A DNA stretch of 32,028 nt from positions 1-32,028 of the forward strand of contig CAJVPI010000388.1 of the NCBI GenBank assembly GCA_910592345.1, written 5' to 3'. A model generated the notes under the pieces. It did no database searches and was not told the DNA's origin. It saw only the letters and a list, made by a program, of their open reading frames with translations. Shown here one piece after another: positions 5,401-28,763 of this stretch. This DNA is from Paraglomus brasilianum (taxonomy: Eukaryota). Position 1 is the stretch's first letter. The number at the start of each line of letters is the position of its first letter. Both the position numbers and the translations under genes were made by a program.

Positions 5401-7036
5401 ATCAAAAGTCATGGGCAAAGAATAATAATGTCTTTTATCGACTCATTAAGCAACAAACGAAAATACAAGTCTGCTCTGCGAAATCCATTCATGTTTTGCG
5501 ATTAAACAAAATAGCCCCTGAAAATGATAAAAGAACGATGTGCTATTTATCACATGGTTTCACGTGATGATCAACTTGCGTTTGTTATAAGCACATGTAT
5601 AAAAGGCATTTGTGCAACTCCAACAAGTTTGCCTTCTTGCTACAGCAATCTTAATTATTAGTAACCAGCCGCCACACTTGCATAATGATGTACTTTTAAA
5701 CGTATCGCATCGACGGATTTTCTTTACACTCCCGATTTGCACTCTGCATACAACACACTTTCGGCAGATTCCGTAGAGCTTTGTTCGGTCTATGGGATCA
5801 CGGGATATGCGTAATCCCTAACAACGTTTCATCGAGTTTCATTGTGAGTAATTGGTCATTGTTAACGTATATTTGTCGCTAACGATTTTAGTAATCCCAA
5901 CGATTACACATACACTCTGATTGCCCCAAACATACACCATTTTTATCTTATCTTCAGGTCATACAAAGACCAAAGACGGCGTTGTTCATATGGATTCTAC
6001 TTAGGCTTGCGTCATCATTCCATTTGCATAACGAGATCATGCTCGCTTCCCCCCTTTTCTTGTTTCAACCGACGATGGCTGAAGAAGTTGCTATATTGAA
6101 AAAAAGAGATTGATCCTGGGAAATAAACCAGACATCTGGTGATAGGGTCGTCGAATAACCGCAAAAGAATTTACTTAGCGGGAAGTATTCGCATAGAATG
6201 CATGTACGGTTCTCTCCGCTTTTAAAAGTGTGGAGGCTTGAGAGGTTGTTCGATGGTGGGGGGAGAGATGGAAAGGGAGCTCGGCGTATTGGGAATGTCC
6301 ACAAGTGTACTTTATACCGAAACCAAGAATAAATGCCATCATCATGATAACGAAAATCGGCAAGAATGTTGCTCTTTTTATTTTCTTTCTTTCGTATTGA
6401 TAACCCGCCCGTACACTGTTTATTTATTAGGTTTGATTATCTAGCGCCGACGGATTTTATTCATTCCGTGTTTTTGCATCTAATTCTTACTTTTCGCCAT
6501 TACTGTGTGTTGAGCAGTAAACAGTAAACAGTGCGTTGAATGGGAATTTAAACTCCCTGTTGAAATTGTATGCTTTTTTTTATGCTGCATCCAAATCAAG
6601 ATCGAAAGGTACATGGTCTGTCGAATGAATTGACCAAAACACTGCAGATGATATACACCATTAGTATAGAGTATCACAGAGACAAAAAAAAGCCCTGTGT
6701 CATTCACCCCTGGCACTATTCCTTTTCTCAAATGTGGGTGCTGCAGATTCAAAAAGGCCTGTCTACGCCTTCGGTCACGCTCCAGAAACTTTAGAAATTA
6801 CTTAACTCTTTCTTAGACCTCTCGTTCCCAAAATAATAATACTCTTCGAGAGTGGTTGCCATATACTAATATATCAACCTCTTTTCCAAACTATCCCCTT
6901 GCCCCTTTTGTCATATCACATTCTCCCCCCCCCCCCCGCTAACTTCTTTTATATAGATAGAATAGTAAATAACTGATAGCACTTATTGAAAAAAAAAAAA
7001 GACACCGCGCAGTCATTCATATATTATATCACTATC

Positions 7037-10000
7037 ATGGAAGGCACACTTCACACACTCGACGACACAATGCACGACACGATGTCAGATGCACACTTAG
7101 TAGACAATCATATAATGGACGGTACTGAACCCATAGTCGAAGAGGAAGTACTATCTGTAGATGTGGAGTTAGCGAAACAGAAGGAAATATTTAAAGATTT
7201 TTCAACTGAATTTCAGAGGTTACAACTTAGCCCTGGCGGCCCTCTCGGAGAATACTTCGAAGCAGTCCAAGCTCTTGCACAGTGGCTGATACGACAGTCT
7301 TCCCGTTTCCCAGACTTTCCCCTAACAGACTCAAAACCCGACCAAGATGCTCTTTCCTCTATTAACGACATATTAGCAAGATTACACGCAGAAATAATAA
7401 CACAAAAATCAGAGCATGCTAAAGTAGTAGAGCTGGGCGAGCAGCTATTATCGTCTACGAACACTTCAGAAGAACAACAAACAATACAAAATATCCAATA
7501 TACAATAGAACAACTATGGTTGTCCTTCACTGAAATAATAAAGACAAGTAACGTTAAATTGCGAGAGTTCCATTGGGTGGCTGACATACAAAAAAAACTA
7601 GACGATGTAATATCACAGGTCAAAGAGGTCGAAGCGACATTAGACGGCGTTGAGGAAAGCAGGCGCAGAACACACGATGACCCTGCTAACGGCCAACTAA
7701 GTGACGTCATTGTCACAGGTTTTATCTCAACATCCCAACTAGACGAATGGTATACCAGGGTTGTAGAAATTGAGGAACTGCTTCATAATGTTGACGAGAA
7801 AATCAATGACATCCATCAGCTCCAAGTCCAACATAGGCAATACAGAATACCCACAGAGCTCAAACAAAATATTGACAATACCATCAGCACAAGCGTTAAT
7901 TCACTTAAAAGCAAAATAGCAGAGATCAAGACTGCTATAGAATACGAGCGGAAAATATGTCGCTGGTTTGATGAAGCAAAAGAGATAGAGAAATGGATAG
8001 CCGATACTCAGAGTAGGACAAATCAATTAGAGGTTCCCGACTTTATCAATAAACAAGAATGGACAGAAGAAGAACAAAATCTAGAAGTAATAGTAGACGA
8101 AAGACGAAAGATGATTGACGCAATTACCGCAGACGTTGAACAATTCAAACAAGATAGGATCGATTTATTAAATAGTAAAGCTGATGATATTATTGCTGAT
8201 ACAAAAGATTCATCTAATCAAGACGATCAAGCGGTTATAGATTTGATAACGAAGCAACGCAAGAATCTGGACGATAAGCTTGCCAAACTAACAGATTACA
8301 TAACATTGATTCTATCACAAACAACTGTCGAACGATATACGGGACTTCTCAAGAATCTCAATGACTTGCAGAAAATGCGGCTACACATGCAATCAGTCCG
8401 AAAACTCATTGCCCAACAAAACGATGCTGAACTAGTGACCGGTGATGTAAAGGAAGTCGAGGTAGAGATAACAAACTACCAACCAGAGCTGCCAACCGAC
8501 GACTCTGCTCTATCAAAGGCTGTACGACAACGCCATTCAAAACTGTTAATTACCATACAAAACATCCGCGTAGCTGTGGAAGAGAACAAACTTCAGATGG
8601 CCGCCTATCTCAGTCCCTCAAGTCCGAGCTCCCCAACTTCGGCTGGGTCGGACTTTGACAGGCTAAGCTCTGAAATTCAGGAACGACTAGAATCGTTTAG
8701 TATACGACTTGTCCCCCCACCCGTGTACATGCTCGAAACAGATTCAGAAAACGATGAACCAGAACGAGTACATGGACTTACGTGCAATGATGATCATGTC
8801 GAAGAGCTCACGGAACGGTATGGTTCGATAGAATCGGAACTAGTTTCATTTGAGAGAAGCATTTGGGTCGAATTCTGGCTTAACAGTGAAAGAGCAAAGA
8901 GAGTTCGTGGTACCGAGGTCAAAGAACGGATCAATGAACTAGAGACAAAGTTTGCCGAGGTCAAAGGTTTTATGGAACTTCGCAAGTCAGATCTCGTTCG
9001 TATAAAAGAAGGCCGAGAATTTGCGAAAAAAGCTCACGCGATCCAAGATCAATTCGACATTGTAAAGGGTAAAATGAGACGCGGTGACGTTGAAACCACA
9101 ACCGATGCTTCAATCCAAGAACTCGACAACCACATGAGCGAAGCCCAAACTCTTCTCGATGGACTTTGTATAGCTCACACTCCAATGATGGCTGAAGATT
9201 TCGATGACAGCAGCTTCAGAGAATCTTTCGAAAAAATTATTTCTGAACAACAACTTGTCCAGGACTGGATTGAAGAAGTACGCATCTGGTTCAGAGAGGC
9301 TGAGCGTATTCGTATCTGGATCGAACAACGTATAGACGTTTTGGAAAACGTTCCCCAGGTAGATGTCTATCAGGAAGGTCCAGCGCCAGTGACTGAAGAA
9401 CAAGTCAATACATGGCAGAAAGAGTATGAAGAATTGGAACATGACGTGGAAAAGTTTGATGCAGAAGATATGTCTCGACTTCGCGATCATGTTAAAAACA
9501 TCATGAGCAGTGACAAAAACACTTCCAACACAATGTCGCCGGCCGACACAATGACGATATCTATAACGTTAAAAACCCTCGCTTTCTTAGATCAACTTTT
9601 CAACATGTTAAAACGACGTGCTAACGAACTAGACTGTTTGGCGTTGCGTGTTCAGTGGGAGCAAGAATATGAGGAAGCCATGAAACAGTGGGAAGGTTTC
9701 ATCACAGAGATTAACGACTTTATAAAACAACGCAGCCGATGGAAAGCTCCTACTAGTACGCGAGCAGACGGTTTTTATGAAGCCATTTTGCAACCATCTT
9801 ACAAAGAAAACAGCGCAGAAGCTCAGACTTTTGGAACAAGGATTAGCAAGTTTAAAGATTCGGTTATTGCAGAAGCTGGACGCGTTTTTGACGAGTTAGT
9901 CGACGTATCGGCCACAGAGCTTCCAGAACATTTATTAGTACGGCAAGAGAATTTGGAAGACCGGGATTACGAATATTTGACGCTGTATCATACTTTTGCA

Positions 10001-13000
10001 AAGAATATCGTTGCTCAAAAGAAAAAGGTCCTCGATTACGTTTCTGACGCAGAGGCTGCTCACCTTGAAGGCTGTCGTTTGCGCGATGACTTGATAAAAG
10101 AAGAATCTAATCCCCGCGCATCAATGGAAAACAAATATGTAGCACGAGTAAAAGCCCTTAATGACAAAATCAACAACGCATGGCAAACCAAAGGCTCAAC
10201 GGTCATTTACCCAACACATCCTCGTCATGAAGAATCCGAAAATGCAGAGGTTCAAGAAGGAGTCGAGAAATATTACAAGTGCCTGCAAGGTCTCACCAGC
10301 GAAGTTGAAGAAGCCCTAAAAGCTTATCAGTGCGCTCTCAGGCTCTTTAAAACCGCTGAAGAATGTAAGAAGGAAGCTGCAAGGTTGGAGAAATGGATTG
10401 CAGATAAGCACAAGTTCCTTAACAAGCGCAAGAGTGACATGCTTGCAAAGAAAACATTTACCAAGGAAGATGTGGAAAAGTTCTTTGCCGATAACACTGA
10501 ATTGACGTCAAATGTAGCTGATTTTGAATCTAAAGATCTTCGTGATTTGCTTGAAAAGGTCGCTGCTCTTGTTGCCGAGGTCAGGACTATTGGAACAAAG
10601 TGCGTTAACACCGACGAATTAGAGAATATGATGCACACTCTCGAAGGCCGTCTCGCTGGTTTACACGAACATATCGAAACTGACGCAGAGGTATTGAGAA
10701 AGAAAATGGTAGAATCTTACATGAACCAAGCAACAGAAATTACATCTTGGATTGAGCCTCGGCTACAAACTTTGCTTAGCATAGCAAATGATGACACGCT
10801 TGGCGAGCAGACCGAGAAGCGCTTGCGTGAATTGATTAGTGAAGTGGATCGTATCGAAACTGCTCGTCAAGGGTATCGTACGTTTGAATTGGGAAAGAGC
10901 CTTTCTGTAGGATTGGTGCAAGAAATGACGCCACTAGAGCGCAAAGTCGAAGGCGAAAGCGAAAGCGATGACGTAGATGTTGATGTTGTTAAAGTTGACG
11001 TAGAAGCTGTTACCGCACGACAGAAGGAACTCGATGATCTTTGGGAAGCATTGAAAAACGCCGTTCCAGAAGCTCGCCAAGTCCTAGAACAAGCACTTCT
11101 CTTTGTCGATGTTAAAGAAAAAGCCAACGAAATACTTAAAAAGATTGCTGATTTGGGCAAGGTGATTGAGAACACAGATGTCAAAGATATGGATCACGCT
11201 ACAACAAGAGACTGGCACATTAAAATAAAGGATATCGAGGAGATTGAATTTTTCCGATTAGTCAGACTTTATACTAATGTTATTGAAAGTCTCCGAGAAA
11301 AACCAACAAAAATAACTGATAAAGAATCGAGTGTGCTCAAAAGTAAATTAGATCAAATATCGGAAGCCATTCTCGGGATCAAGAAACTTATTGGCAAAAA
11401 GTCCGACGACTTTGAAGCTTATCAATCATCACAAGTTGCCTACGCTCATAAAGTACGCATTGATGACCTACAGCGATGGATTGAACAGACTATAACGAAC
11501 TTTGCAGATGCCACACAATATGGTCTAATGGTAGGCAAAAATGAAGATCAAAACAACAACAATTTCCAGTCGTTATCTCTTTTATTTGAAGAGTTTACTA
11601 ACGAACTGCCGGAACGTATGAACGAATTGGAAAGTATCAAGGCTGAATTTCAAGACATTTCAGCACGAGGAGATATTCGCGAACTACAAGACATTATTAA
11701 ATGGCACGATCAGCTCGGTACTTCTTGGGATAGATTAGAACTAGCTACTTCAGAAATGAAAGGACTTGTTGACAAAGTCAAGAGTTGGTATGATTGTCAC
11801 GGGAGCATCTACCGTGTTGAAACTGACATTGTTAATGGGTTACGGCAGCGCATTGATAAGCTTGGAAGTACAGGATACGATGAATTAGCTGCAGAAGTCA
11901 ATGAATTAGATGACAAGATAAAAGAAGGGTATTCGAGACTCGAGAAAGCTAAAGTTGCCTCTCATAAAATTCCAGAGAAGCCAGGAGAACCACTCGACGC
12001 GCAGAACAAACTTAATTTCAAAGATCATCATGACGATATGACAAAACGATTAGATGCATTATCAGCTGCACTCAAGGTTGCATTAACAGCAGCGCATAAT
12101 GCATCCGCTCTCGCTGCTTTCCATGCAGAGGCAGACCGTATCATATCTGATTGCTTAGAAGGAACAGCTATTGTAAAAACCCGTCACGATGATTTAGAAA
12201 TTAGTGGATATTATGCTCTTGAAGTCAATGCTCTCGAAAAAGTCCTCCGAGGTTCGATTGACGGATACACAGAAAGTGAACAAAAGTTACGTGGCCTTGA
12301 TGATCAAGTAAATGGAAGTTTCAAGACGGAGGCTGATTCATTGATAGAACAAAATCCTACCATCAACAAAGAACGTATATTGAGTATCTATAATAGAGTA
12401 AGCGATACTTTGAAAGGATTTTCGGATGCAGTTGCACTTGAGCGACGAGAGCTTGAGCTTGTACGTAGGCTATATGCACATGCTAAAGCTGCTCGGGATA
12501 TCAAGGCATGGATACAGGGATGTAAACGTGCTGTACTCGACATTCAGGTTGATGTTACCGATCAGGAACTAGAAATTGCAGACCTTGAAGAAAAAGTAGC
12601 CCGATTCCAACCAACAGTTGATACATTCGTAGAAATGGCACGAAATGCCTTAGTACCAGAAGCCGATAGTGCTGATATTGATGTACCGCAACCAGAAGAA
12701 TCAAATCCCAAGATCAAAGATGCCGTACAACAGCGAACTGACCGTGTATTAGACGACTGGAATGCTCTCAAAGATTTATTAACGACAGTAAGAAAGAGTC
12801 TCAACGCTTCCAGAGAGAACCAAGAAGTCAGTCGAGCCATCAAAGATATTCTCATGGCCATTGGCCAAGTCAAGGAACGAGTACTGAACATTGAATCATA
12901 TATCACAGGCGAAACCGTAATCCGCCTGCCCACAAAAGAAGACATTGATAATGGTGAGCGGGAGCTTGATGAAATCCAGGCTGAGATTGACCACATTCTT

Positions 13001-14655
13001 CAGCCTAGGATTGAAGCTTTGGACGAGATGCTCAGCAACCTCACAGAAAATGCGACCGGCTATTTGCAACAGCGCGCTGGTATTGCCGAAGCTTTGACGA
13101 ACCTCGCCAATATTATCGACAGCAAACGTAATCAACTCCGAGAAGCGAATCGTCTATCAATATTTGGCACCAAGGCTGACGAAATGGAAGCTATGATAAG
13201 CTCGTTATTAGAAGTAATCGACGCGGCATCCACAGCAACAGATAACAATCTTGCAGCACTACCCAAAACTGAGCTTCAGACTAGACTTATTGAGCTAGAG
13301 ACCAAGTATCAATACTACGAACCAAAGATATCTCAAGAATTGGAGAACATTCGAATCATGGCCGAGGCAATTAAAGACGACTGGCGAGTAGAAGAACGAC
13401 TCGGCACCCTCACTGAACAGTGGGCAGAGCTGAAGGCATTAGCAAACACAAAGAAAGATGAGTTGAAGCGTTTGCTTTCCGGTCAGAAGCGTGCAGCACA
13501 ACCATCCACCAGACAGCGGCGAGCGGCATCAAATCCTTCTTCAGGTACGGCACCATCAAATTCGCCTGTGCGTACAGTAACAACTCGTCCTTCATCAAGG
13601 TTAACACCAAGATCATCAACTTCTTCATTACGAACAGCACGATCGCCCTCGCCGGCGTCTAGCCGTCTTACCAAAAGAAGTGTTGTGTCACCCAACGGAT
13701 CTCCGTCAAGACACAATGTTAACTATCGATCAAGATTGGCTAGTCCGTCGAGTACTCCGAGACAGACGCCGAGCCCGACACCTGGCGCTCCTGGAACTCC
13801 ACGAAGACCTCCGATCAGACTATTGCCGCATTCCATTAACAATTACGTACCTGATCCTAATGATCAGTTGGATGTTGAGGTTGCAAGGATCGTTAACGCT
13901 TGTCCCGTCAAGATTAAAGTCTCTATGGTTGAAAGAGAATCTGGAAAATATATGTTTGGTGAAGTGGAGCCTAAACTGTGTTACTGTCGTATTTTGAGAA
14001 GTCGTATGGTCATGGTCAGAGTTGGTGGTGGCTGGGCTGAACTATCAAAGTAAATATACAAAGATATCTTTTTTTCTTCTTCTGTCTGTTCCGTCTGTTT
14101 AGTTAACAAATACTAAATACTATTTTTTTTTTCACCTTATCCCATATAAACAATTTCGCAATTATCCCCACAAAATTTTATTTAAAGATTCCTTGTCGGT
14201 AAGTACATGATTCTTTTTCTTTTTCCAATCATTATGACCACGAAACGTCAACAAAGATTCTTCAAAAGAAAAAAAAAAGCGATGATTTTTTCTCTCATTT
14301 TCAACCCTGCGTTTATCATATTATAACCTATAGATAACAATGATGCCACTCTCCAATTCATTCTGCCAAAACAGAACACGCTAATCTGGAACAAAAGTAC
14401 ATCCCCAAAGCCCGGTCTTTTGTCGGACCTAACGAAATCGAACCTAGTAGTAAAGCCGCTGATGGTGCCCGTTTTCATGAGGCGTACATCAGCCTTGAGC
14501 CGACGGGACCAAGACTCAGAGAAGGAGAAACGAGTTCTAGTCCCGTGGCGTTGAAAAGCTCGATCGCTAAAAGAAATGTGAGTAGTTTAGATAAGTATTC
14601 GAAACGTTTTGGGCGACCGAGCGGGAGTGGGAGCGGGTATAAGAGAGTAGATTGA
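7037..14655 (+). CDS. Giant spectrin-repeat-like rod protein with C-terminal GAS2/GAR domain (spectraplakin-like), ~2434 aa; exons 7037-14049, 14188-14198, 14375-14655
   Basis: ATG at 7037 is in good context (atcATGG), with an in-frame stop upstream at 6977. Helix-A-type signatures recur (WFDEAKEIEKWI, WFREAERIRIWI, EAARLEKWI, QATEITSWI, IDDLQRWI, ARDIKAWI), as do helix-C 'L..LW..L' patterns. The GAS2 motif is DQLDVEVARIVN...GKYMFG...CRILRSRMVMVRVGGGWAELSK. Splicing (GT 14050/AG 14187, GT 14199/AG 14374) restores the expected FLVEH. Total 7305 nt = 2435 codons including the stop. Confidence 0.9.
13841..14380 (+). other. GAS2/GAR microtubule-binding domain split across three exons
   Basis: NYVPDPNDQLDVEVARIVNACP...VMVRVGGGWAELSK|FLV|EH. 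VMVRVGGGW is the GAS2-domain hallmark. Confidence 0.9.
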
Positions 14656-16233
14656 TTTATACAGATTGATTTGGGAATTTGGGTTTTTCTTCTGAGGATT
14701 TGTCTGGGTGATGACAAGAAAAAAAGAACATTCAGGGCATTGAGTCTGTTTTGTCTGCGTTCGTCTTATTTTCATTATTTTATTTCATTATTTCATCATT
14801 TCATTATTTATTTTTATTTTTTTTTATTTTTTCGTTTTCTTTATGGTCACTTTGCTGTTTCTCTACAATTTTATGAGAACAAAAAAAAAGGCACTCTCCC
14901 TATATATTTATATGTTATTTATGTAATATGTATCTATTACTAAAAATATAAAAGAACACACTGAGCTATTAGACACCTTTATAAAAATTATTTATGAATC
15001 AGAAATTAACATTTCATAAAAAAATTCTCTCTTCCCCCCAAAATTATTATTACAATCTTCAACCCATTCATTTTTCACAGAACCGTGAACTTTGCATATG
15101 GGCAATAGGGTTAGCGATACTGGTTTATTTCCTGATCGCATTGAAGCAGCCATCGGGCGCATTCGACAGTTGTCAACTCAAGAATACACAGTTCTTGATT
15201 TGTACCTAGCCACCGGAGAACATTTTATAAAGTAAAATCATACGTTATGGACTCTCTTTTTCTTCTAATTTTGCCCATTATTTTATAAATTCATTTGTAC
15301 CTATCTCTTTAGGATTTTCTTAGATCTTTTATACAGTTTCTTTCTCTTTTTTTCTTTTCTTTCTCTTTTCTCTTGGGGATCTATGGGGGAAGGTGGGGAA
15401 GAGTATGGTTGGGAGAGAAATAGCAGAATTGTAAGTTTCCAATAATTTCTGTAATTAAATTTAGAAATGTATATCGTGATCAATTGTGATAGTGTTAGTT
15501 TGGAGAGAGCGCTTGTCGAAATTTCCACGAGTGATCGCGTTGTGTGTGAGTTTGGTCATATTTTTATCTTTATTGCCCATCATATTATCACAAGTCTCAA
15601 TAGCTGGGCAAAGCAGCCACGAACAAGACAATTTAAGCAAGGACAGGAATGCTTTATAGCAGGTCTATTATAATCTCTAAAAACTCTATATTTAGAAAAA
15701 AGATCAAGTAAAACCAAAGTGAGTGTGGTCAAAGGATATGTCCATTGTCATTCACGTGGTGCTTGTAAGAGACTATAGAGTTACCATCACTGTAATTGAT
15801 TGGAAGACACTCTTTGAATACGTTGTCTTGCAAGCATCGAATAAACCGAACCTGAGATGTTGAGCTAGTCAATTGACAAGTGACAAGCTATCTACCTGTA
15901 CTTGGCAAGTTCATTAGGTACCTAGGTTCATTCTACTTCACATTCCATCAATTACGTAATAATATCAATAATCCCCTTACAATCCCCTCATCACCGTTCC
16001 TTGCCATATTAGGAAAGTGCGCTCATATCTTACCAACAGTGGTTAATTTTTTATTGCCCAAATTTCGCGCTTTTCCCCTAACCCTATCATCATTATCATT
16101 ATTCGTATGTCGACCCGCGCGCAGCAAAGTTTACGAAGGAATTATTAGGAACAAACAACACCGTCTTACAACACACCACCTGTCGAATTAATTGATTTTT
16201 CTCTCTTTTTAACGATTTCTCTTTCGAATCAAA

Positions 16234-18285
16234 ATGTTTGCAAGCTGGACTGCTTGGTTTGCGCCGAAAGTTGATCAGCAAGCACGCGATCTCTGGGGTA
16301 AAGTACAAGTCTCTTTTTTTCCTTCCCGAAACTAAGCTACACATACTTTTTTTACTTCAACTTGTCTTAATTTCTGACATTATTCGCTGCCATTTCTTTT
16401 TCTGTTATTACGTCTCGCAGTCTACCATGGTGGCAAACGCAACATTCGCCCGTCGTGTTGCGATTTATTCTTTAGCAACGATAAAAACGAACCTGAAACG
16501 AGACAGTAAGTAATATGCGCATTTTTTCATGGGCTGTAAGTGTTAATTAACCAACTATATCCGTCTTTGCCTTTGTAGACTATTGCAGCAAAAGACTGTT
16601 GTTATATACCACCCAAGTTGGATAAAAGATTGTCACAACAGAGGCCGTCCAGTGCATTTAGGACCTTTTGTTCTGCCGGACTTTGACTTTCGTGAGTTAT
16701 CAAAATTTATTTACGTTTACATTGTTACATTTATTCCCGTAATATCAATTTTGGTCGCTTGCTTTCCTTTTTTTTTTTTTTTCTAACGTTTCTTTCTTTA
16801 TTCTCTTTTCATCTGTTCGATACTTTACCTTTCCTCTGTAGCTATACGACGTCGAATTCAATCGACTGCTTCCTTGCCTAGTTCTCCCCATTCACCCATT
16901 CTAACATCGACACACAGTTCGCCTACCCCTGCTCCTACCTACGCTCGAACTCAGACCAATTCAACCAGATACAGTCTGCCGATAAATGTGACCTTTGAGC
17001 GATCGTCTTCACTAGGTTACGTTGATGACTTGGATCCTCAATATGGAATACCAAGACGACGTGCACGAAAAGTCAGGTCATCGGATTCGCCTTTTATTGA
17101 TTTTACCAGTATAAACGGCAGTAATAGTGCAAGTGTTATCGAGAACGAAGGAGCAACTGATGAATTAGATGCGAATGCGAATGAATCAAAATTGCCTGAT
17201 TACTTTTATAGGCAGGATGGGTGGAACAATAGGTAAGCATTGTTTGCTTAAAAATGCAAACTGAGATTGGAGAGACATTGAAAGGATTCAAGGAAAAAGC
17301 TGGGGTTTTTAGATTAGGGCACGTGAGTGTTGTGATTACAGTCTTTTTTTACCCATGTTAACGTAAAAAGATTTGTTCGGTCTCGCTTGGTGTTTGTTGT
17401 TTGTTTTTAATTTAATTCATCTGGCTATTTTGATTATTATATTTCCAGTGCTATCCGTATTGTTCTTTTGACTGTTGCTCTTATTACTACATCAAATGCT
17501 GTCCGCCTTGTCGTTCCTTTTATTTCCTTCTTTCCCTCTCCACAAACTCCCTCCGTACCAACCTACCCTTTGCAGGCCGCCTCCTCCACCAACACCGCCT
17601 CGGCCGGCTAGCAGAGCCTCTCGCTCTCCCTTAAGGTGATTTATCAATTACTGGAGATGTATTTTTACGCGTCTGCGAGTTTGTTAGAAATCTAACCTTG
17701 GTACTTTTTCTGCAGAAAGAAGAGAAGGTTAGACACCCCGGAAGTTTTTAGGAGATATGAATGTGAGAGCGATCAAATGAATGAGGTCGAAAGCGTAGAC
17801 GTAATTGGAAATTCAATCAGGAATGCAATGGACAACGAACAAGAGACTATAAGTCACAACGTGGAGAACCATGTGGAGGAAGTAATTAATGAAGGACGCG
17901 AAGATGACGTGACCGAAGACCAGAGAAATGACCGTTCCGAAAGGTATATCTGGAGACTAGGTTTACTTTTTTTTTTTTTTAAAAAAAATTTTCTTTCGCC
18001 ATATTCACTCTTGCGACTAATGCTTCAAATTCCTACAGAGGAACGACTCCTCCACAGCCAGAATCATTCCATCCGGCACCTTACCCAAATACCCCCACCC
18101 CTTCTCGTTTTCATACACCTCCAACACCAACACCACAACCTTCCACAATTAGCGCCAATCAGCTAAAACAGCGTGCAACCGTTTTGTTGATGGCTTTAAA
18201 CCCATCGCGAACGTCCATATTTGAGGCAGCTGAAATACTTCGGCCAGGGTTTGGTGGGTTTGAGATTGAGGAATATGGAGGATGA
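16234..18285 (+). CDS. TERB2-like protein (BRCT-like N-terminal domain, disordered middle, short C-terminal motif), ~395 aa; exons 16234-16297, 16421-16505, 16579-16691, 16842-17232, 17576-17635, 17716-17943, 18039-18285
   Basis: All six introns are GT-AG with consistent phases; 1188 nt = 396 codons including the stop. N-terminus: MFASWTAWFAPKVDQQARDLWVYHGGKRNIRPSCCDLFFSNDKNEPETRQLLQQKTVVIYHPSWIKDCHNRGRPVHLGPFVLPDFDFPIRRRIQ. It has an NLS-like RKKRR and ends ...SIFEAAEILRPGFGGFEIEEYGG*. The gene model is solid. The TERB2 identity rests on alignment by eye to remembered human TERB2. Confidence 0.75.
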
Positions 18286-18930: not shown

Positions 18931-21900
18931 TTATGACAGATCGAATCCAACACCCGCATCGATTGCATATTCCAATTTCCTATAAAAATAATAGAGAATA
19001 ATTAAATACAATACATTCAAACCAAACCAACTCGAGCATGACCAAACTCGTCACCCTCAACTTACGCTCTCAACGTCTTTTCATCAGGATATGCGGGCAA
19101 CTTTAACAAGTTAAAACAAGTGCTGCTCGTAGGCAACCTTAATTCCTTCCCGGCATTTCGAATAGCAAACTTTGGAACAAGCTCTCCAAACCCGAGTAAA
19201 GGTGGTCGAGAACATGATGTCACAAATTTAATTAATTTACGTTTTTGTTCTTCACTGAAGCAAGAGACAACATTCCAGAAGTTTTGGATTACAGTGTCGT
19301 CATCGCTATAGCCAGAGTAGACGGTATTCTGACGAAGATCGTCAAGGTTGATATCGATCTGTGCTCCACCAACGAGAACCTGGAGTTCTTGCTATTGTGC
19401 AAAGTTTTGAAAATTAAAAAGAGTGGATGAATAAGAAAGAAGCGCATTTAGGTACATTCGTATATTTTTCTTGGTAAAGACAAAACTCACCTGATTAAAC
19501 ATTTGTAGCCATTTTGGCTCAATCAAGTCAGAAAGCCCTTTAAAGAATGCCTTGCATTGCTTGTTGATTTGTGTGTTTAATCTGTAATTGGCAACTCGAA
19601 AGACGTATTGATATTTTGTTTCATTAGTCACCGGAGTGTTCGCGCCGTTCGGTATAAGTTCAACTATACGAGACACTCCAAGCTCTAGAAAAGGTTGATA
19701 TGGATGCGAATATGGGTTATAAATAACGTAATATAAAAGTCCATATCAATTAATGTATAGAAATATTAAGTCTTGATCTTACCATGGTCGACAACTGTAA
19801 AGTTCACTCCGAAATCACTCTCGACGTTTCCTTCATAATTTTTGAGTATTATTAATCCTTTATATAATTCTGGATCCAGCGATGGTAAGTCGTCCACTGG
19901 AATAAGCAGAAAGACGGCAGGTATGAGTTCAGAATACAAGAGTAGCTCGCGCCAAGTTTACGCAAATTTTGTACTTACAATATGATGATCTACTAAGCCA
20001 TTTACTCAAGAAGAACCCAGCAAATGCAAAATCAACCAATACTCCTTCATATAAAGCTTTACCCAATATACGACCGAGGAACTCATAATAGTTCAGTTGT
20101 TGTTCTATAAAAAAAAAACCCGAAGAAGAAAAAAAAGATAAGTCTCAACGCTAAATTGACAAATCATGTGACATAGAACACCTTTGCATGTTTTTACCTT
20201 CTTGAGCATATCTCAACGTATTAGGATACAGCAATTGATCTTTAGTTGTAACAAATAAGCCACGGTTTGCATCGAATGCTTCTTTACACAACCTGAAATC
20301 AAAATACATCAGCAGCTTATTCCCAAGAAATTTCTTGCAACCTTGCAATTCAACTTACAAAGTCAAAAATTCTTTCAACAATCCCCCGCCATCAACCCCA
20401 GCCTCCGTAAGGTTGTGCTGATCAATGAAAGAGATTGCTATGCGATCTTTTAGTTCTTCTTTCAATCCACTAAGATACGTATAGGCGTCTTCGAATATGT
20501 GAGTCCGGCGGATATCGACGCGTATTCGGTAGTGATTATATGGTCTAAAAAATGAACAATAATTAGTATAATCCCCCTGGAAGAGTTGACTGGATTTTAA
20601 AAAACCACCAAAGCTCCAGGAATCGACTAACATAAAATCTTAAATAGATATCATAGAGGTTCTAACAATAGTACTAACCGCTTTGGATCATTTTGTACAA
20701 ATTTCCTAAATAGCTTGACTCGGTCTTCGAATGGAATAACAAACGGAATGCTATTCAATATCTTTATTCGATGACTGATAGGAGCGATTCGACGTGGACC
20801 ACTTTTGGGAGGTAAATCTTCGGCACCTTGTTCATAAGACGCTGCTTCGTTGATGAAAGATGCCATATCCATCTGCGAAGCCATTAACCAGTGACCTGTT
20901 TCTGTGAATTGGCGACGAGAGCTGTGTGTAAAAGAGAGAATTAAACAATAAAAAGTAGACAGTAAGTAAAAAGAAGGGGCAGTCAAACAATCGCGAGATA
21001 AAAACACGGATGTAACGTTCAATATTGATTTAGCGCCAAACACTCACTCTCTCGCATGTATTTGCTGGAGCACCTTTGTCAATATATCCCTTAAATACGT
21101 AAGTTGTATACATGTGCCTTCGAGCACATATTCCATTTTGAAGTGTGAATTCCAATATAGTGCAAACGTGACATTCTAAAGTGGCGAAATAATCATTACG
21201 CTTAATGCTTCGAATAATTTCTGCACCCTAAATTTTCACAAACGTACCCTCAAGCAAGCAGACATCTTGATAACTTCACCAAGATTCAAAGGATTCTTCC
21301 CATCTTCAAAGAACTCGTCATCTCCAGTGGTCAGTAATACGCGACTAAATAGCTCACATAGCAGGGCCAGCATTTCCCATTGTTGGGCATGCGCAGGGTC
21401 TACGAAAGATTGTAATAAAACAAATGGTTGAGGATAACTAATAGACCGACCCGGATAATAAATGAACCATGACACTGTTCTAAAATATCTTCCTTTACAT
21501 TCTTTCCTCCCATCATAGCTAGCTCACCTGTAATAACTGCCGTGGGAAACATTCTCTCATTAATTTTCTCGTATAATTCCATTGCTGTGAACCCTTCCCA
21601 AATCATCTTGACGTAGGTATCTTTCTTGTCTGGACTAAATCTCTTCATCATGCTAGTCAACAGCTGCTGCTTCTTCAATGGCCATCGACTCATGAGAGCC
21701 ATGAGTAAATTACAGACACGGAGTAGTGACGTTGAACCAGAAGACGAAGTAGCGAAGGCGAAGATAGATGCAAGTTGAGGACCTTTGAAAAAACGTTCGA
21801 TCCACCAAAGCAGACGAGTATCTATAGGGTGATGTGGTGTGTCGGAAGATGAGAGTCCTTCGTTTTCGTCCTCGTCGTCGTCGTCGTCGTAACTCGAGGA

Positions 21901-26002: not shown

Positions 26003-26923
26003 ATGCCACAAAGTTTAGAGTTCACCGATTTTGAGCGAGGAATGATTATAGGTTTGAGATAGCTGTTATTCTCAAATGTTCCAAGGGGCTGTTCAGGGTG
26101 GTATTGAACAATATAGAGAGGATGGACACGCCACGGTGCTGCCTCGCTCCGGTAGACCACAAAAACTTAGTGATAAAGACGAGCGACTATTGATAAGAGT
26201 AAAGAAGAAGATAGAAGCGTAACACTCGACCAGTTAACGGAAAATTTTAATAAAAATCTTCTATAAAGAACAGTACAGCGTACTCTACATTATTATGGCT
26301 TTTACAGTAGAGTCACAAAAGGAAACCATTAGTTAGCGAAAAGAATAAAAAGATCAGGTATTACGGTGGTGCAAGAACGTAAAAGATTGGAAGGGGGAAT
26401 GACAAGGTAATTTTCAGTGATGAGTCAAGGTATCTATTATTTAAAATCGATGCGCATAAGCTTGTCTGGAGACTACCTGATGAAAAATATTGGAAGACTG
26501 TTTGGCACACCGACCGAAAAACACTCTGGAGGGGTTATATTTCTGTAAGGATAGACTAGAGGACCAGTTGAAGGAAATATCAATGCCACCATGTATAGAC
26601 AAATCTTGGGAGAATATCTGTTGCCTTATCTACAAGAACTTGGCAATGAAAGTATATTTTTCAAGATGACAATGCCCCTTATTAATTCACTTGAGTGGCC
26701 CTCTCGTCCTGACCTTAATCCAATAGAGCATCTGTGGGATGAATTAGAAAGAAGGATTAGGCGAAATAAGTTTAGACCGGAAAAATAAGGCAAGAATTGT
26801 TTGCTGCAGTGAAAAGAGAGAGGGATCAAATTACAAGCGATGTAATCAATAAATTAGTCGACAGTGTGCCCCGAAGGAGTTAAAGCTGTATTGAAATCAA
26901 AGGGAGATGCTACTCCATATTAA
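26003..26923 (+). mobile_element. Tc1/mariner (DD34E-type) transposase pseudogene
   Basis: Recognisable motifs: MPQSLEFTDFERGMIIGL, PRSGRPQKLS, VIFSDES, FQDDNAP, LEWPSRPDLNPIEHLWDELERRI, LVDSVPRR, KSKGDATPY*. It carries multiple stops, frameshifts and deletions. A possible left TIR TA|CACCCACTGGACAAAAG lies at 25165-25183, but no matching right TIR is visible. Confidence 0.9.
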
Positions 26924-27112
26924 CTATGCTAAAAAGAGCGTGTTGAATGATTTAACTTACGCTAATGTTTATTATGTGCGTGGTTTGAGAAAATTAGCAT
27001 AATAGATAATAATAATCGCACATCACATCTCAGATGATATTTCACAAAGTCACCTGAATATTTGGCCACATACAGCAAACTCATCAACAGAGAGCCAAGT
27101 TATCATTTCGAA

Positions 27113-28763
27113 ATGACTAACTTAATTGATATAGTTGACCTGTCTTCAGGTCTTTCATCGGATTATGAAAAGCTTTATGAAAGCAGCAAATATACAGATG
27201 TTTCGATCAATGTTGGAAAAGAGCCAAACAATAAAATCTTTCTTGCTCATGCAGTAGTATTGTGCACGAGAAGCACATATTTTGAGAAGATGGTGGTTGA
27301 AAATACAGAAGAGTTTCAACGGACAGTTATGACTTTTGAAGATGTAACATCCGAAGTCTTTGAAATTTTACTTAGGTAAATGTTTATTAAGACGCTAAGT
27401 AATACAGTCCTTTCGAATGGTTCCTTACTCAACCGATTTACCATAAATTTACTATGTTTATAGATTTATTTACACAGGAAAAGTGACTTATGATTCAAGT
27501 GAGTTCATCAACTGGATTAGTCTTTTGGATGCCATTTGCAGATTCGAATTAGATAGCCTTTTTACCACAATTGGAGACTATTTGGTTAGTCACCAAAAGG
27601 AATGGATACAACACAACTTTTTTACAATCCGTGAATATGCCTCGTCCTCAAGTTCATTGAATAAGCTTTTGAATTACTGCAATGACATTATGATATCATC
27701 TCCAGAGATTCTCCTTAAATCTGATAATTTGGCAAGTCTACCAAAAGAGAATATGATTGCTCTACTCAAACATGATGAACTTAACATGGAAGAAATTGAT
27801 ATTTGGACATCAGTAATACAATGGGGTATTACTCAAGTTCCAGGTCTTGAAAATGAACCTCACAGCTGGTTGTCTGAAGATTTTACTAAAGTCAGAGCAA
27901 TTATATCTGACTGCATTCATCATATAAGGTTTTTCAATATTTCATCTGAAGATTTTCAGGAGAAAATTGTTCCATATGATGAGTTATTAACAAAAAATTT
28001 GCGGCATGATATAGTTTTTTATCATATCAATAAAAATTATGAACCAAAATCAATAGTTTTACCCCCAAGGAAAGGTCAAGCAATTTATGATAATAAGACT
28101 AATGAAGAGGACAAAATTCTTAATGTTAATGCTGATATTGACTCAGTTATCATTAATGAACAACAAGCAGCATGGATTGCACAAAAGATAATGGAAACAA
28201 TGAAGAGAAATCAAGAAAGTCAAAGAGTCTCTAGGAATGGGAAGAGCAGTTGTTGCTATAAGTTTACCCTACTTTATAGGCACAGTAGGGATGGTAATGC
28301 ACCCAAAAATTTTCGACAAATGTGTGCTGAGAAAGGCCCCACAGTAACTGTTGGAAAAGTATGGAATACAGAAGAAATGCTTGGTGGATACAATCCCATT
28401 TCTTGGAGCACTTTCAATTCACTCCCACCTTTTGATACTAATACTAATACTAAGTTAAATCTTCATATTAATTTGTATCAACTGGTTCATATTCAAACTT
28501 CAGAAAGCTTTATATTTTCATTAAATAAGGATAATTTGGATGAAAGCATAGCGAGTTTTATTGTTGATAGTAAGTATGCCATTGGTGAACAGAAATTTTC
28601 CTATCCTTGTTTTGGGGACAGTGATTTAGTTTTTGGAGCTACTGGTATTATTTTTTGTAAACCTTGTTCTACAAAAAGGTTCTATGAAATTGCAATAAGG
28701 TCTACCTCAGATAATTTTGGATGGGTGGACTGGGAAGTATTTTCAGTTACGAAAATGAATTAA
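27113..28763 (+). CDS. BTB/POZ-BACK-TLDc domain protein, ~520 aa; exons 27113-27375, 27464-28763
   Basis: BTB: YTDVSINVGKEPNNKIFLAHAVVLCTRSTYF...FEILLR|FIYTGKV. BACK: LLKHDELNMEEIDIWTSVIQWG, CIHHIRF. TLDc: FTLLYRHSRDG, KGPTVTV, GGYNPISW, ESFIFS, PCFGDSDL, DWEVFSV. The intron is GT 27376 / AG 27463. This family is highly expanded in AM fungi. Confidence 0.92.

What the first reader, a model, noticed from the sequence alone, without database searches (positions are those of the whole stretch)
16234..16870. Hidden multi-exon gene encodes a TERB2-like (meiotic telomere bouquet) domain in a fungus
Seen: four small exons splice into MFASWTAWFAPKVDQQARDLWVYHGG...CDLFFSNDKNEPET...VIYHPSWI...VHLGPFVLP...IRRRI. 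From memory, human TERB2 begins MFQGQRGWFCGSVSQDLRQFWVAEGG...ADFLFSCDASHPDT...VFHAYYL...VALGHFILP...IRRKI. The match is colinear from the start Met (MF, WF, V, WVxxGG, DxxFSxD, PxT, H, LGxFxLP, IRRxI). Established: TERB1-TERB2-MAJIN tethers telomeres to the nuclear envelope in meiosis and is generally described as metazoan, while yeasts use unrelated proteins (Ndj1; Bqt1-4). Inference: the complex may predate the animal-fungal split and persist in a lineage with no observed sexual cycle, supporting cryptic meiosis. I also recall similar domains in basidiomycete hypothetical proteins, so database hits may already exist.
Basis: partly seen in the sequence, partly recalled or inferred. Interest (0 to 1): 0.9.

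Follow-up and report, generated by a model that had tools for sequence, protein, structure and literature searches.

The report
Fungal TERB2 sharing animal introns
A root-symbiotic fungus has a real, spliced gene of the TERB2 family, until now described from animals, with introns in the same places as animal copies, so this meiotic chromosome-tethering protein is likely older than animals; its job in the fungus and its partners are untested, and it lacks the loop that grips TERB1 in humans.

Summary
Confirmed and extended. The four exons start a seven-exon gene (16234-18285, 395 aa), already annotated as an unnamed CDS of Paraglomus brasilianum; RNA contigs bridge junctions 1-3. The N-terminal domain passes the Pfam TERB2 cut-off (41.7 bits against 27; BRCT_2 14.8), hits only human TERB2 in the PDB by sequence, and is predicted to fold as a BRCT domain. 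Two introns match two animal TERB2 loci exactly in position and phase, the third in phase and within two codons. Relatives occur in other arbuscular mycorrhizal fungi, Calcarisporiella, Zoopagomycota, Blastocladiomycota and a unicellular holozoan. So TERB2 very likely predates the animal-fungal split. The whole complex is not shown: 33 of 33 fungal proteins lack the five-residue segment carrying human Tyr56, needed for TERB1 binding; the MAJIN-binding tail is clear in 29 of 33 fungal proteins but degenerate here; TERB1 and MAJIN could not be searched. It adds little to the case for cryptic meiosis. This scan noted TERB2-like genes in three other fungal genomes before; my literature searches found no such report. 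New lead: introns 4-5 are often unspliced in RNA contigs, which would cut off the tail.

The parts
16234..16297 (+). Exon 1 (codons 1-21 plus one base); start Met; intron after it in codon 22, phase 1, same as animal TERB2 loci
16421..16505 (+). Exon 2; intron after it in codon 50, phase 2, same alignment column as animal codon 49
16579..16691 (+). Exon 3; lacks the five-residue segment with human Tyr56; intron after it in codon 88, phase 1 (animal codon 96, phase 1)
16234..16861 (+). TERB2-type N-terminal domain, residues 1-94, predicted BRCT fold (pLDDT 93-98 over residues 1-80)
16842..17232 (+). Exon 4: end of the domain, then Ser/Pro/Thr-rich linker predicted disordered
17233..17575 (+). 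Intron 4, no branch-point match near its 3' end; often unspliced in RNA contigs; alternative acceptor at 17448 gives a 271-aa product
17576..17635 (+). Exon 5 (Pro/Arg-rich); its splicing is seen only as loose ends of contigs from relatives and in the annotation
17636..17715 (+). Intron 5, weak donor; unspliced in contigs of 4 of 7 RNA runs; retention gives 238 aa
17716..17943 (+). Exon 6; basic cluster at residues 238-242 (predicted nuclear localisation signal), then acidic linker
18039..18285 (+). Exon 7 with stop codon
18103..18267 (+). Conserved tail, residues 336-390: predicted helix 353-367 and a degenerate MAJIN-binding-like motif (Leu381, Pro383, Phe388 for human Phe192, Pro194, Tyr199)

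Best explanation
This spliced, transcribed seven-exon gene encodes a TERB2-family protein with introns at animal TERB2 positions, likely inherited from the common ancestor of animals and fungi, and it likely works as a two-ended nuclear adaptor that ties chromosome ends to the inner nuclear membrane in meiosis. Shown: gene structure, splicing of introns 1-3 and 6, family membership, shared introns. Predicted: a BRCT-fold head, a disordered linker of about 250 residues with a nuclear localisation signal, and a helix plus motif at the tail. Inferred: the tail would wrap around a MAJIN-like membrane protein, as the human tail does, while the head would dock on a telomere-bound protein through a surface unlike the human one, because the TERB1-gripping Tyr56 segment is absent; that segment is likely an animal addition.
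For: Pfam TERB2 41.7 bits, cut-off 27, against BRCT_2 14.8. A profile of 9 non-animal rows scores human TERB2 at E 3.5e-12 and the next BRCT (REV1) at 0.0056. Of 37 other proteins found among 1.84 billion, 36 have TERB2 as best family. Introns 1 and 2 fall in the same column and phase as in 2 of 2 animal loci, intron 3 in the same phase two columns away. The same head-linker-tail layout as human TERB2 (PMC6297230, section 8). A matrix from animal tails alone finds the tail motif in 11 of 12 other fungal proteins scored (at most 4 of 2000 shuffles; 9 of them had been picked for having a motif); strict motif in 29 of 33 fungal proteins. In this protein residues 336-386 are 49 of 51 identical to P. 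occultum, more than the head (81 of 94), and align without gaps to the Rhizophagus tail (10 of 2000 shuffles). The tree puts it on the non-animal side (93/89).
Against: The Tyr56 segment, whose change abolishes TERB1 binding (PMC6361898, section 8), is present in 23 of 23 animal rows and absent in 33 of 33 fungal rows. The tail motif here is weak: no hmmsearch domain; 238, 139 and 41 of 2000 shuffles reach its score with animal, fungal and joint matrices; the Asp191 position is Ile. A fungal full-length profile did not hit the human TERB2 tail chains in the PDB. By fold alone TERB2 (Z 12.0) is tied with ligase IV and XRCC1 BRCTs (Z 12.5-11.6). Transcripts are in 7 of 7 RNA runs laid, three of them rhizosphere metatranscriptomes, whereas Hydra TERB2 is gonad-specific (PMC7227075). 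The F/YxLxP motif ends in Asp here. No TERB1 or MAJIN was found or could be searched.
Confidence: 0.55

Rival explanations
1. A true TERB2 orthologue, but with a vegetative job: it would tether telomeres or other chromatin to the nuclear envelope, or act in DNA repair, in ordinary hyphal nuclei; the meiosis-only role would be an animal specialisation that came with TERB1 docking.
For: Transcripts in 7 of 7 RNA runs laid, including 3 rhizosphere metatranscriptomes. No Tyr56 segment. BRCT fold shared with repair proteins. Meiosis has never been seen in these fungi (PMC3184777, abstract).
Against: The tail motif of animal TERB2 is kept across fungal phyla. Many RNA contigs keep introns 4 or 5, which would remove the tail, so transcription need not mean full-length protein.
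Confidence: 0.27
2. A TERB2 orthologue that in Paraglomus has drifted away from a MAJIN-type partner: the tail binds something else, and the ancestral tethering function is lost or rewired.
For: Both Paraglomus proteins miss the strict motif that 29 of 33 fungal proteins have; weak matrix scores.
Against: The tail is the most conserved part between the two Paraglomus species (49 of 51), keeps Leu/Pro/Phe at the three wedge positions, and is colinear with the Rhizophagus tail. The P. occultum model is fused to another region after residue 387, so its tail end cannot be judged.
Confidence: 0.13
3. An ordinary fungal BRCT protein that resembles TERB2 by chance or by fold alone.
For: Fold searches tie TERB2 with other BRCT domains; UniRef names several relatives 'BRCT domain-containing protein'; Atlas feature search ranks TERB2 only seventh, 0.84.
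Against: 28-29% identity to TERB2 against 5-21% for the other BRCT chains listed; nine orders of magnitude in profile E-value; shared intron positions; shared tail motif in relatives.
Confidence: 0.03
4. An animal gene that entered the assembly as contamination or by horizontal transfer.
For: TERB2 is described as metazoan (PMC7227075, PMC13522668).
Against: Orthologues in P. occultum, Rhizophagus, Glomus and other phyla; non-animal side of the tree; near-identical DNA in soil metagenomes and RNA in rhizosphere runs.
Confidence: 0.02

Closest known systems
Human and mouse TERB2 (Pfam PF15101; PDB 6J07 with TERB1; TERB2-MAJIN structures in PMC6361898 and PMC6297230)
   Same: N-terminal domain from the start Met, 28-29% identical over 91-105 aligned positions; flexible linker; C-terminal motif with hydrophobic-x-Pro and an aromatic five residues later; intron positions shared with two animal TERB2 loci.
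   Different: Lacks the Asp55-Tyr56-Glu58-Asp59 segment that binds TERB1; linker about 250 residues against about 60; tail motif degenerate (Asp191 position Ile, Phe192 position Leu) and preceded by a predicted helix; no terminal basic patch; transcripts in rhizosphere RNA.
Single BRCT domains (REV1, XRCC1, DNA ligase IV, Crb2, Rap1)
   Same: Same predicted fold, Z 8-12.5, rmsd about 2-3.7 A.
   Different: 5-21% identity; Pfam BRCT_2 far below cut-off; no tandem BRCT or catalytic domain.
Yeast meiotic telomere adaptors Bqt1/Bqt2 and Ndj1
   Same: Same inferred role, linking telomeres to the nuclear envelope (PMC7227075, PMC13522668).
   Different: No sequence likeness found: no such Pfam or PDB hit; they would be later replacements.
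Unnamed fungal TERB2-like proteins in public databases (Rhizophagus, Glomus, Calcarisporiella, Dimargaris, Coemansia, Linderina, Basidiobolus, Paraphysoderma)
   Same: Same head without the Tyr56 segment; 28 of 34 hits carry a precomputed PF15101 label.
   Different: Most keep a much clearer tail motif than Paraglomus; sources name them hypothetical or BRCT proteins.

Membership tests
TERB2 protein family (PF15101) | Score above Pfam's curated cut-off | tested here: met
   41.7 bits against 27, residues 2-84
TERB2 protein family (PF15101) | Best hit is TERB2, not another BRCT family | tested here: met
   Only PDB hit 6J07_A; profile E 3.5e-12 against 0.0056; 36 of 37 library hits are TERB2. 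The reverse search from human TERB2 was not run.
TERB2 protein family (PF15101) | Common descent shown by intron positions | tested here: met
   2 of 3 introns exact, 1 of 3 same phase within two codons, in 2 of 2 animal loci
TERB2 protein family (PF15101) | N-terminal domain has the fold of human TERB2 | tested here: met
   Z 12.0, rmsd 2.2, 91 residues; the fold is shared with all BRCT domains, so it does not discriminate
Subunit of the TERB1-TERB2-MAJIN complex | TERB1-binding segment Asp55-Tyr56-Glu58-Asp59 | tested here: not met
   Spacing 27 with aromatic at 56 in 23 of 23 animal rows; 20-23 in 33 of 33 fungal rows, 22 here
Subunit of the TERB1-TERB2-MAJIN complex | C-terminal MAJIN-binding motif (Asp191, Phe192, Pro194, Tyr199) | tested here: inconclusive
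   Best window is at the expected place (376-390) but p 0.02-0.12; Rhizophagus tail aligns at 10 of 2000; clear in 29 of 33 fungal proteins; no PDB tail hit
Subunit of the TERB1-TERB2-MAJIN complex | F/YxLxP motif at the end of the domain (all animal taxa, PMC7227075) | tested here: not met
   Phe80 and Leu82 kept, last position Asp84
Subunit of the TERB1-TERB2-MAJIN complex | TERB1 and MAJIN encoded in the same genome | not testable with these tools
   No genome held; no TERB1 or MAJIN query available; none among 166 open frames of the window scanned
Subunit of the TERB1-TERB2-MAJIN complex | Meiosis-specific expression and telomere localisation | tested here: inconclusive
   Transcripts in 7 of 7 RNA runs laid, but contigs give no level or cell type; introns 4-5 often unspliced
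Canonical BRCT families (PF00533, PF16589, PF12738) | Score above cut-off | tested here: not met
   BRCT_2 14.8 against 27.3; the others not listed at E up to 10
BRCT fold superfamily | Parallel sheet flanked by helices, superposable on BRCT domains | tested here: met
   41 chains at Z 8 or more, the listed ones nearly all BRCT

The most novel reading that the evidence does not exclude
The ancestor of animals and fungi already had a TERB2-MAJIN-type tether for meiotic telomeres; animals later added the Tyr56 loop to dock TERB1, and yeasts replaced the tether. Arbuscular mycorrhizal fungi keep it switched off in hyphae by leaving introns 4 and 5 unspliced, so fully spliced TERB2 mRNA would mark the cells in which their never-observed meiosis takes place.
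Probability: 0.15. Interest if true: 0.88.

Novelty: new variant of a known kind. Interest (0 to 1): 0.62.

Why it matters
The papers I read date TERB1-TERB2-MAJIN to the first animals and treat yeast adaptors as unrelated. A TERB2 gene with animal intron positions in early-diverging fungi moves at least one subunit back to the opisthokont ancestor and makes Bqt1/2 and Ndj1 likely replacements. The clean split (tail motif kept in fungi, TERB1-gripping loop only in animals) gives a testable order of assembly for the complex. It also shows that the TERB2 head is a BRCT domain, which my search did not find stated in print. For mycorrhizal biology it offers a candidate marker for telomere clustering, but no proof of meiosis.

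Tried and rejected
Single exons against Pfam and the PDB gave nothing useful; the signal needs the spliced protein. Word-based search with residues 1-97 found only the two Paraglomus proteins. One of 38 profile hits (P0010, a 2014-aa repeat protein) was spurious and dropped. An alignment of 16 mostly animal rows was too diverse for a contig scan; 7 closer rows gave 2 loci from 135 pattern matches. hmmsearch with tail profiles found no domain in this protein. A fungal full-length profile missed the human tail chains. Fold searches cannot separate TERB2 from other BRCT domains. No MAJIN- or TERB1-like frame among 166 open frames of the window (150 of 214 frames of 45 aa or more went into; small exons would be missed), and no fusion to MAJIN among the Pfam labels of 34 hits. 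No named Ascomycota or Basidiomycota hit came from sequence searches; the Atlas gives Basidiomycota clusters at 0.91 and 0.94 as leads only. The soil DNA run X5 did not cover exons 1-3, so it is no control for those junctions. I considered a phosphopeptide pocket in the head; the register against REV1 puts an acidic residue where the binding Lys is recalled to be, so I make no such claim. No complex was folded, since no partner sequence was available.

Full report
Observation. The sequence shows an ATG at 16234 and GT-AG introns at 16298-16420, 16506-16578 and 16692-16841. Three more introns (17233-17575, 17636-17715, 17944-18038) give an open frame of 395 codons ending at 18285. The same 395 residues are on record as CAG8528563.1 of Paraglomus brasilianum, an arbuscular mycorrhizal fungus, on a contig of the window's length. 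The gene is therefore annotated but unnamed. I laid 7 of the 10 RNA or probable RNA runs listed and one soil DNA run. Intron 1 is skipped in 4 of 7, intron 2 exactly in 2 of 7, intron 3 in 4 of 7, intron 6 in 2 of 7; three studies contribute. Junctions 4 and 5 appear only as loose ends of contigs from related species (X16, X8).

Family. Pfam gives TERB2 41.7 bits (cut-off 27, E 1.6e-10) over residues 2-84 and BRCT_2 14.8 bits (cut-off 27.3). The only PDB sequence hit at E up to 10 is human TERB2, 6J07_A. A profile of the two Paraglomus heads found 38 proteins among 1.84 billion; of the 37 others, 36 have TERB2 as best family, 35 above cut-off, and one is a spurious repeat protein. A profile of 9 non-animal rows scores human TERB2 at E 3.5e-12 and REV1 at 0.0056. 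By structure it is not decisive: the model (38-row alignment, pLDDT 93-98 for residues 1-80) has a BRCT fold, with ligase IV at Z 12.5 and 12.4, TERB2 at 12.0 and XRCC1 at 11.8, all tied, though TERB2 stands out in identity, 29% against 5-21%. The Atlas model ranks a TERB2 cluster first by structure, TM 0.79, but seventh by features.

Range. Named relatives: P. occultum, Rhizophagus, Glomus, Calcarisporiella, Tieghemiomyces, Dimargaris, Dispira, Coemansia, Linderina, Martensiomyces, Basidiobolus, Paraphysoderma and the unicellular holozoan Syssomonas. Many of the fungal rows are close Coemansia copies. In a tree of 42 heads the 23 animal rows form one side (93/89) and Paraglomus lies on the other; fungal monophyly is neither shown nor rejected (p-AU 0.19). 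14 of the 23 animal rows are named; I assigned the other 9 from their sequence.

Introns. Both have introns after coding base 64 (codon 22, phase 1), 146 (codon 49, phase 2) and 286 (codon 96, phase 1). The window gene has them after base 64, 149 and 262. In one alignment introns 1 and 2 share the column and phase; intron 3 shares the phase and lies two columns away, and is exact if the gap is placed as in the alignment to human TERB2. A rough chance for two exact matches is 2 in 10,000. The animal exon borders are my models from GT-AG ends, not from RNA. This is the strongest evidence for descent from one ancestral gene.

The TERB1 side. In the human complex Asp55, Glu58 and Asp59 make salt bridges to TERB1, and changing Tyr56 abolishes binding (PMC6361898, sections 7 and 8). 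That segment is a five-residue gap in this protein. The spacing is 27 with Tyr or Phe at position 56 in 23 of 23 animal rows, 20-23 in 33 of 33 fungal rows, and 26 without an aromatic in Syssomonas. A defining feature of the complex is thus not met; I do not file the protein as a subunit of the animal complex. Other parts of the large interface may survive, so binding of a diverged TERB1 is not excluded.

The MAJIN side. Human Phe192, Pro194 and Tyr199 form a wedge in MAJIN, and Asp191 a salt bridge (PMC6297230, passages). A matrix from 15 animal tails (8 of 23 rows had no motif and were dropped) finds the motif in 11 of 12 other fungal proteins scored, at most 4 of 2000 shuffles; 9 of these were picked for matching a pattern first. 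The strict pattern is in 29 of 33 fungal proteins. Here the best window is always 376-390, with Leu381, Pro383 and Phe388 at the wedge positions, but 238, 139 and 41 of 2000 shuffles reach it and hmmsearch finds nothing. Stepping stones help: residues 351-388 align without gaps to three Glomerales tails (10, 19 and 39 of 2000) and with one gap to Linderina (15), not to Calcarisporiella (335) or Dispira (272). Residues 336-386 are 49 of 51 identical between the two Paraglomus species, against 81 of 94 for the head and 64-84% for the linker. The tail is under constraint and likely homologous to the MAJIN-binding motif; binding is inferred.

Mechanism. Human TERB2 is a head and a tail joined by a flexible linker (PMC6297230, section 8). 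The fungal protein has the same layout, with a longer disordered linker and a basic cluster at 238-242, predicted to be a nuclear localisation signal. I infer an adaptor between a telomere-bound protein and an inner-nuclear-membrane protein, most likely in meiosis (0.55); a vegetative tethering or repair role is the main rival (0.27).

Expression and splicing. All 7 RNA runs laid hold pieces of the gene; runs were chosen for that, and contigs give no level. Intron 5 is unspliced in contigs of 4 of 7 runs (X7, X8, X10, X16) and the 5' part of intron 4 is covered in 4 of 7 (X8, X10, X11, X16); X11 also uses an acceptor at 17448, while introns 1 and 3 are only seen spliced. These forms give 218, 238 and 271 residues, without the basic cluster and tail. 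Intron 4 has no branch-point match near its end and intron 5 a weak donor. Regulated splicing is one reading; slow splicing, precursor RNA or DNA in the libraries are others. It is a lead only.

What is known. PMC7227075 (parts 1-2 of 6 and passages read; no occurrence of 'fung' in the main text; supplement not readable, and its phrase 'mainly in metazoans' points to tables I could not see) dates the complex to the metazoan ancestor. PMC13522668 (2026) and PMC9140367 (passages) repeat this. Searches: TERB2 with BRCT, 0 papers; TERB1 with arbuscular mycorrhizal, 0; TERB2 with Mucoromycota, 0; TERB2, MAJIN and fungi, 9 papers, seen as a listing, one read in passages; one search likewise. The library omits most subscription journals. 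Databases already label such fungal proteins PF15101 (28 of 34), so the match is visible but, as far as I found, not discussed. Meiotic genes in these fungi are known (PMC3184777, abstract). That Kickxellales, Dimargaritales and Basidiobolus form zygospores is recalled, not checked. Earlier notes of this scan describe TERB2-like genes in three other fungal genomes; they are unchecked and not counted as support.

Verdict. Real gene, very likely a TERB2 orthologue (about 0.93), a variant without the TERB1-gripping loop. Interest 0.62.

Noticed in passing
window 6980-14053 (+): A 2357-codon open frame with a weak spectrin repeat and a C-terminal GAS2 domain (Pfam E 2.7e-14; PDB hits to MACF1 at E 2e-4): a spectraplakin-like giant protein in a fungus.
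   Followed up: partly
window 19065-20144 and probably further to about 22640 (-): Multi-exon HECT ubiquitin ligase gene facing the TERB2 gene.
   Followed up: no
window 26058-26785 (+): Weak HTH_32 and DDE_3 matches below cut-off: likely a decayed Tc1/mariner-type transposon.
   Followed up: no
window 27038-28763 (+): BTB, BACK and TLDc domains in two frames: one spliced gene.
   Followed up: no
window 17233-17715: Introns 4 and 5 often unspliced in RNA contigs, plus an alternative acceptor at 17448 that adds a hydrophobic stretch and a stop at 271 aa.
   Followed up: partly
P0002 (P. occultum), residues 388-649: The annotated protein continues into an unrelated region after the tail motif; probably two genes fused by the annotation.
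   Followed up: no
P0045, P0072, P0070-P0074, P0036: Broken gene models of Rhizophagus, Coemansia and a fish-like row start, stop or diverge at the positions of introns 1 and 3, hinting that these introns are shared more widely; inferred from protein models only.
   Followed up: partly
P0039 (1040-base JGI contig) and P0026 (Syssomonas): P0039 joins a head without the Tyr56 segment to a very animal-like tail motif; P0026 has an intermediate spacing. Possible intermediates from unicellular relatives of animals.
   Followed up: partly
run X16 on window 16223-17233: At least three divergent spliced versions of the gene in one rhizosphere metatranscriptome, with the same intron positions: related species also transcribe it.
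   Followed up: no
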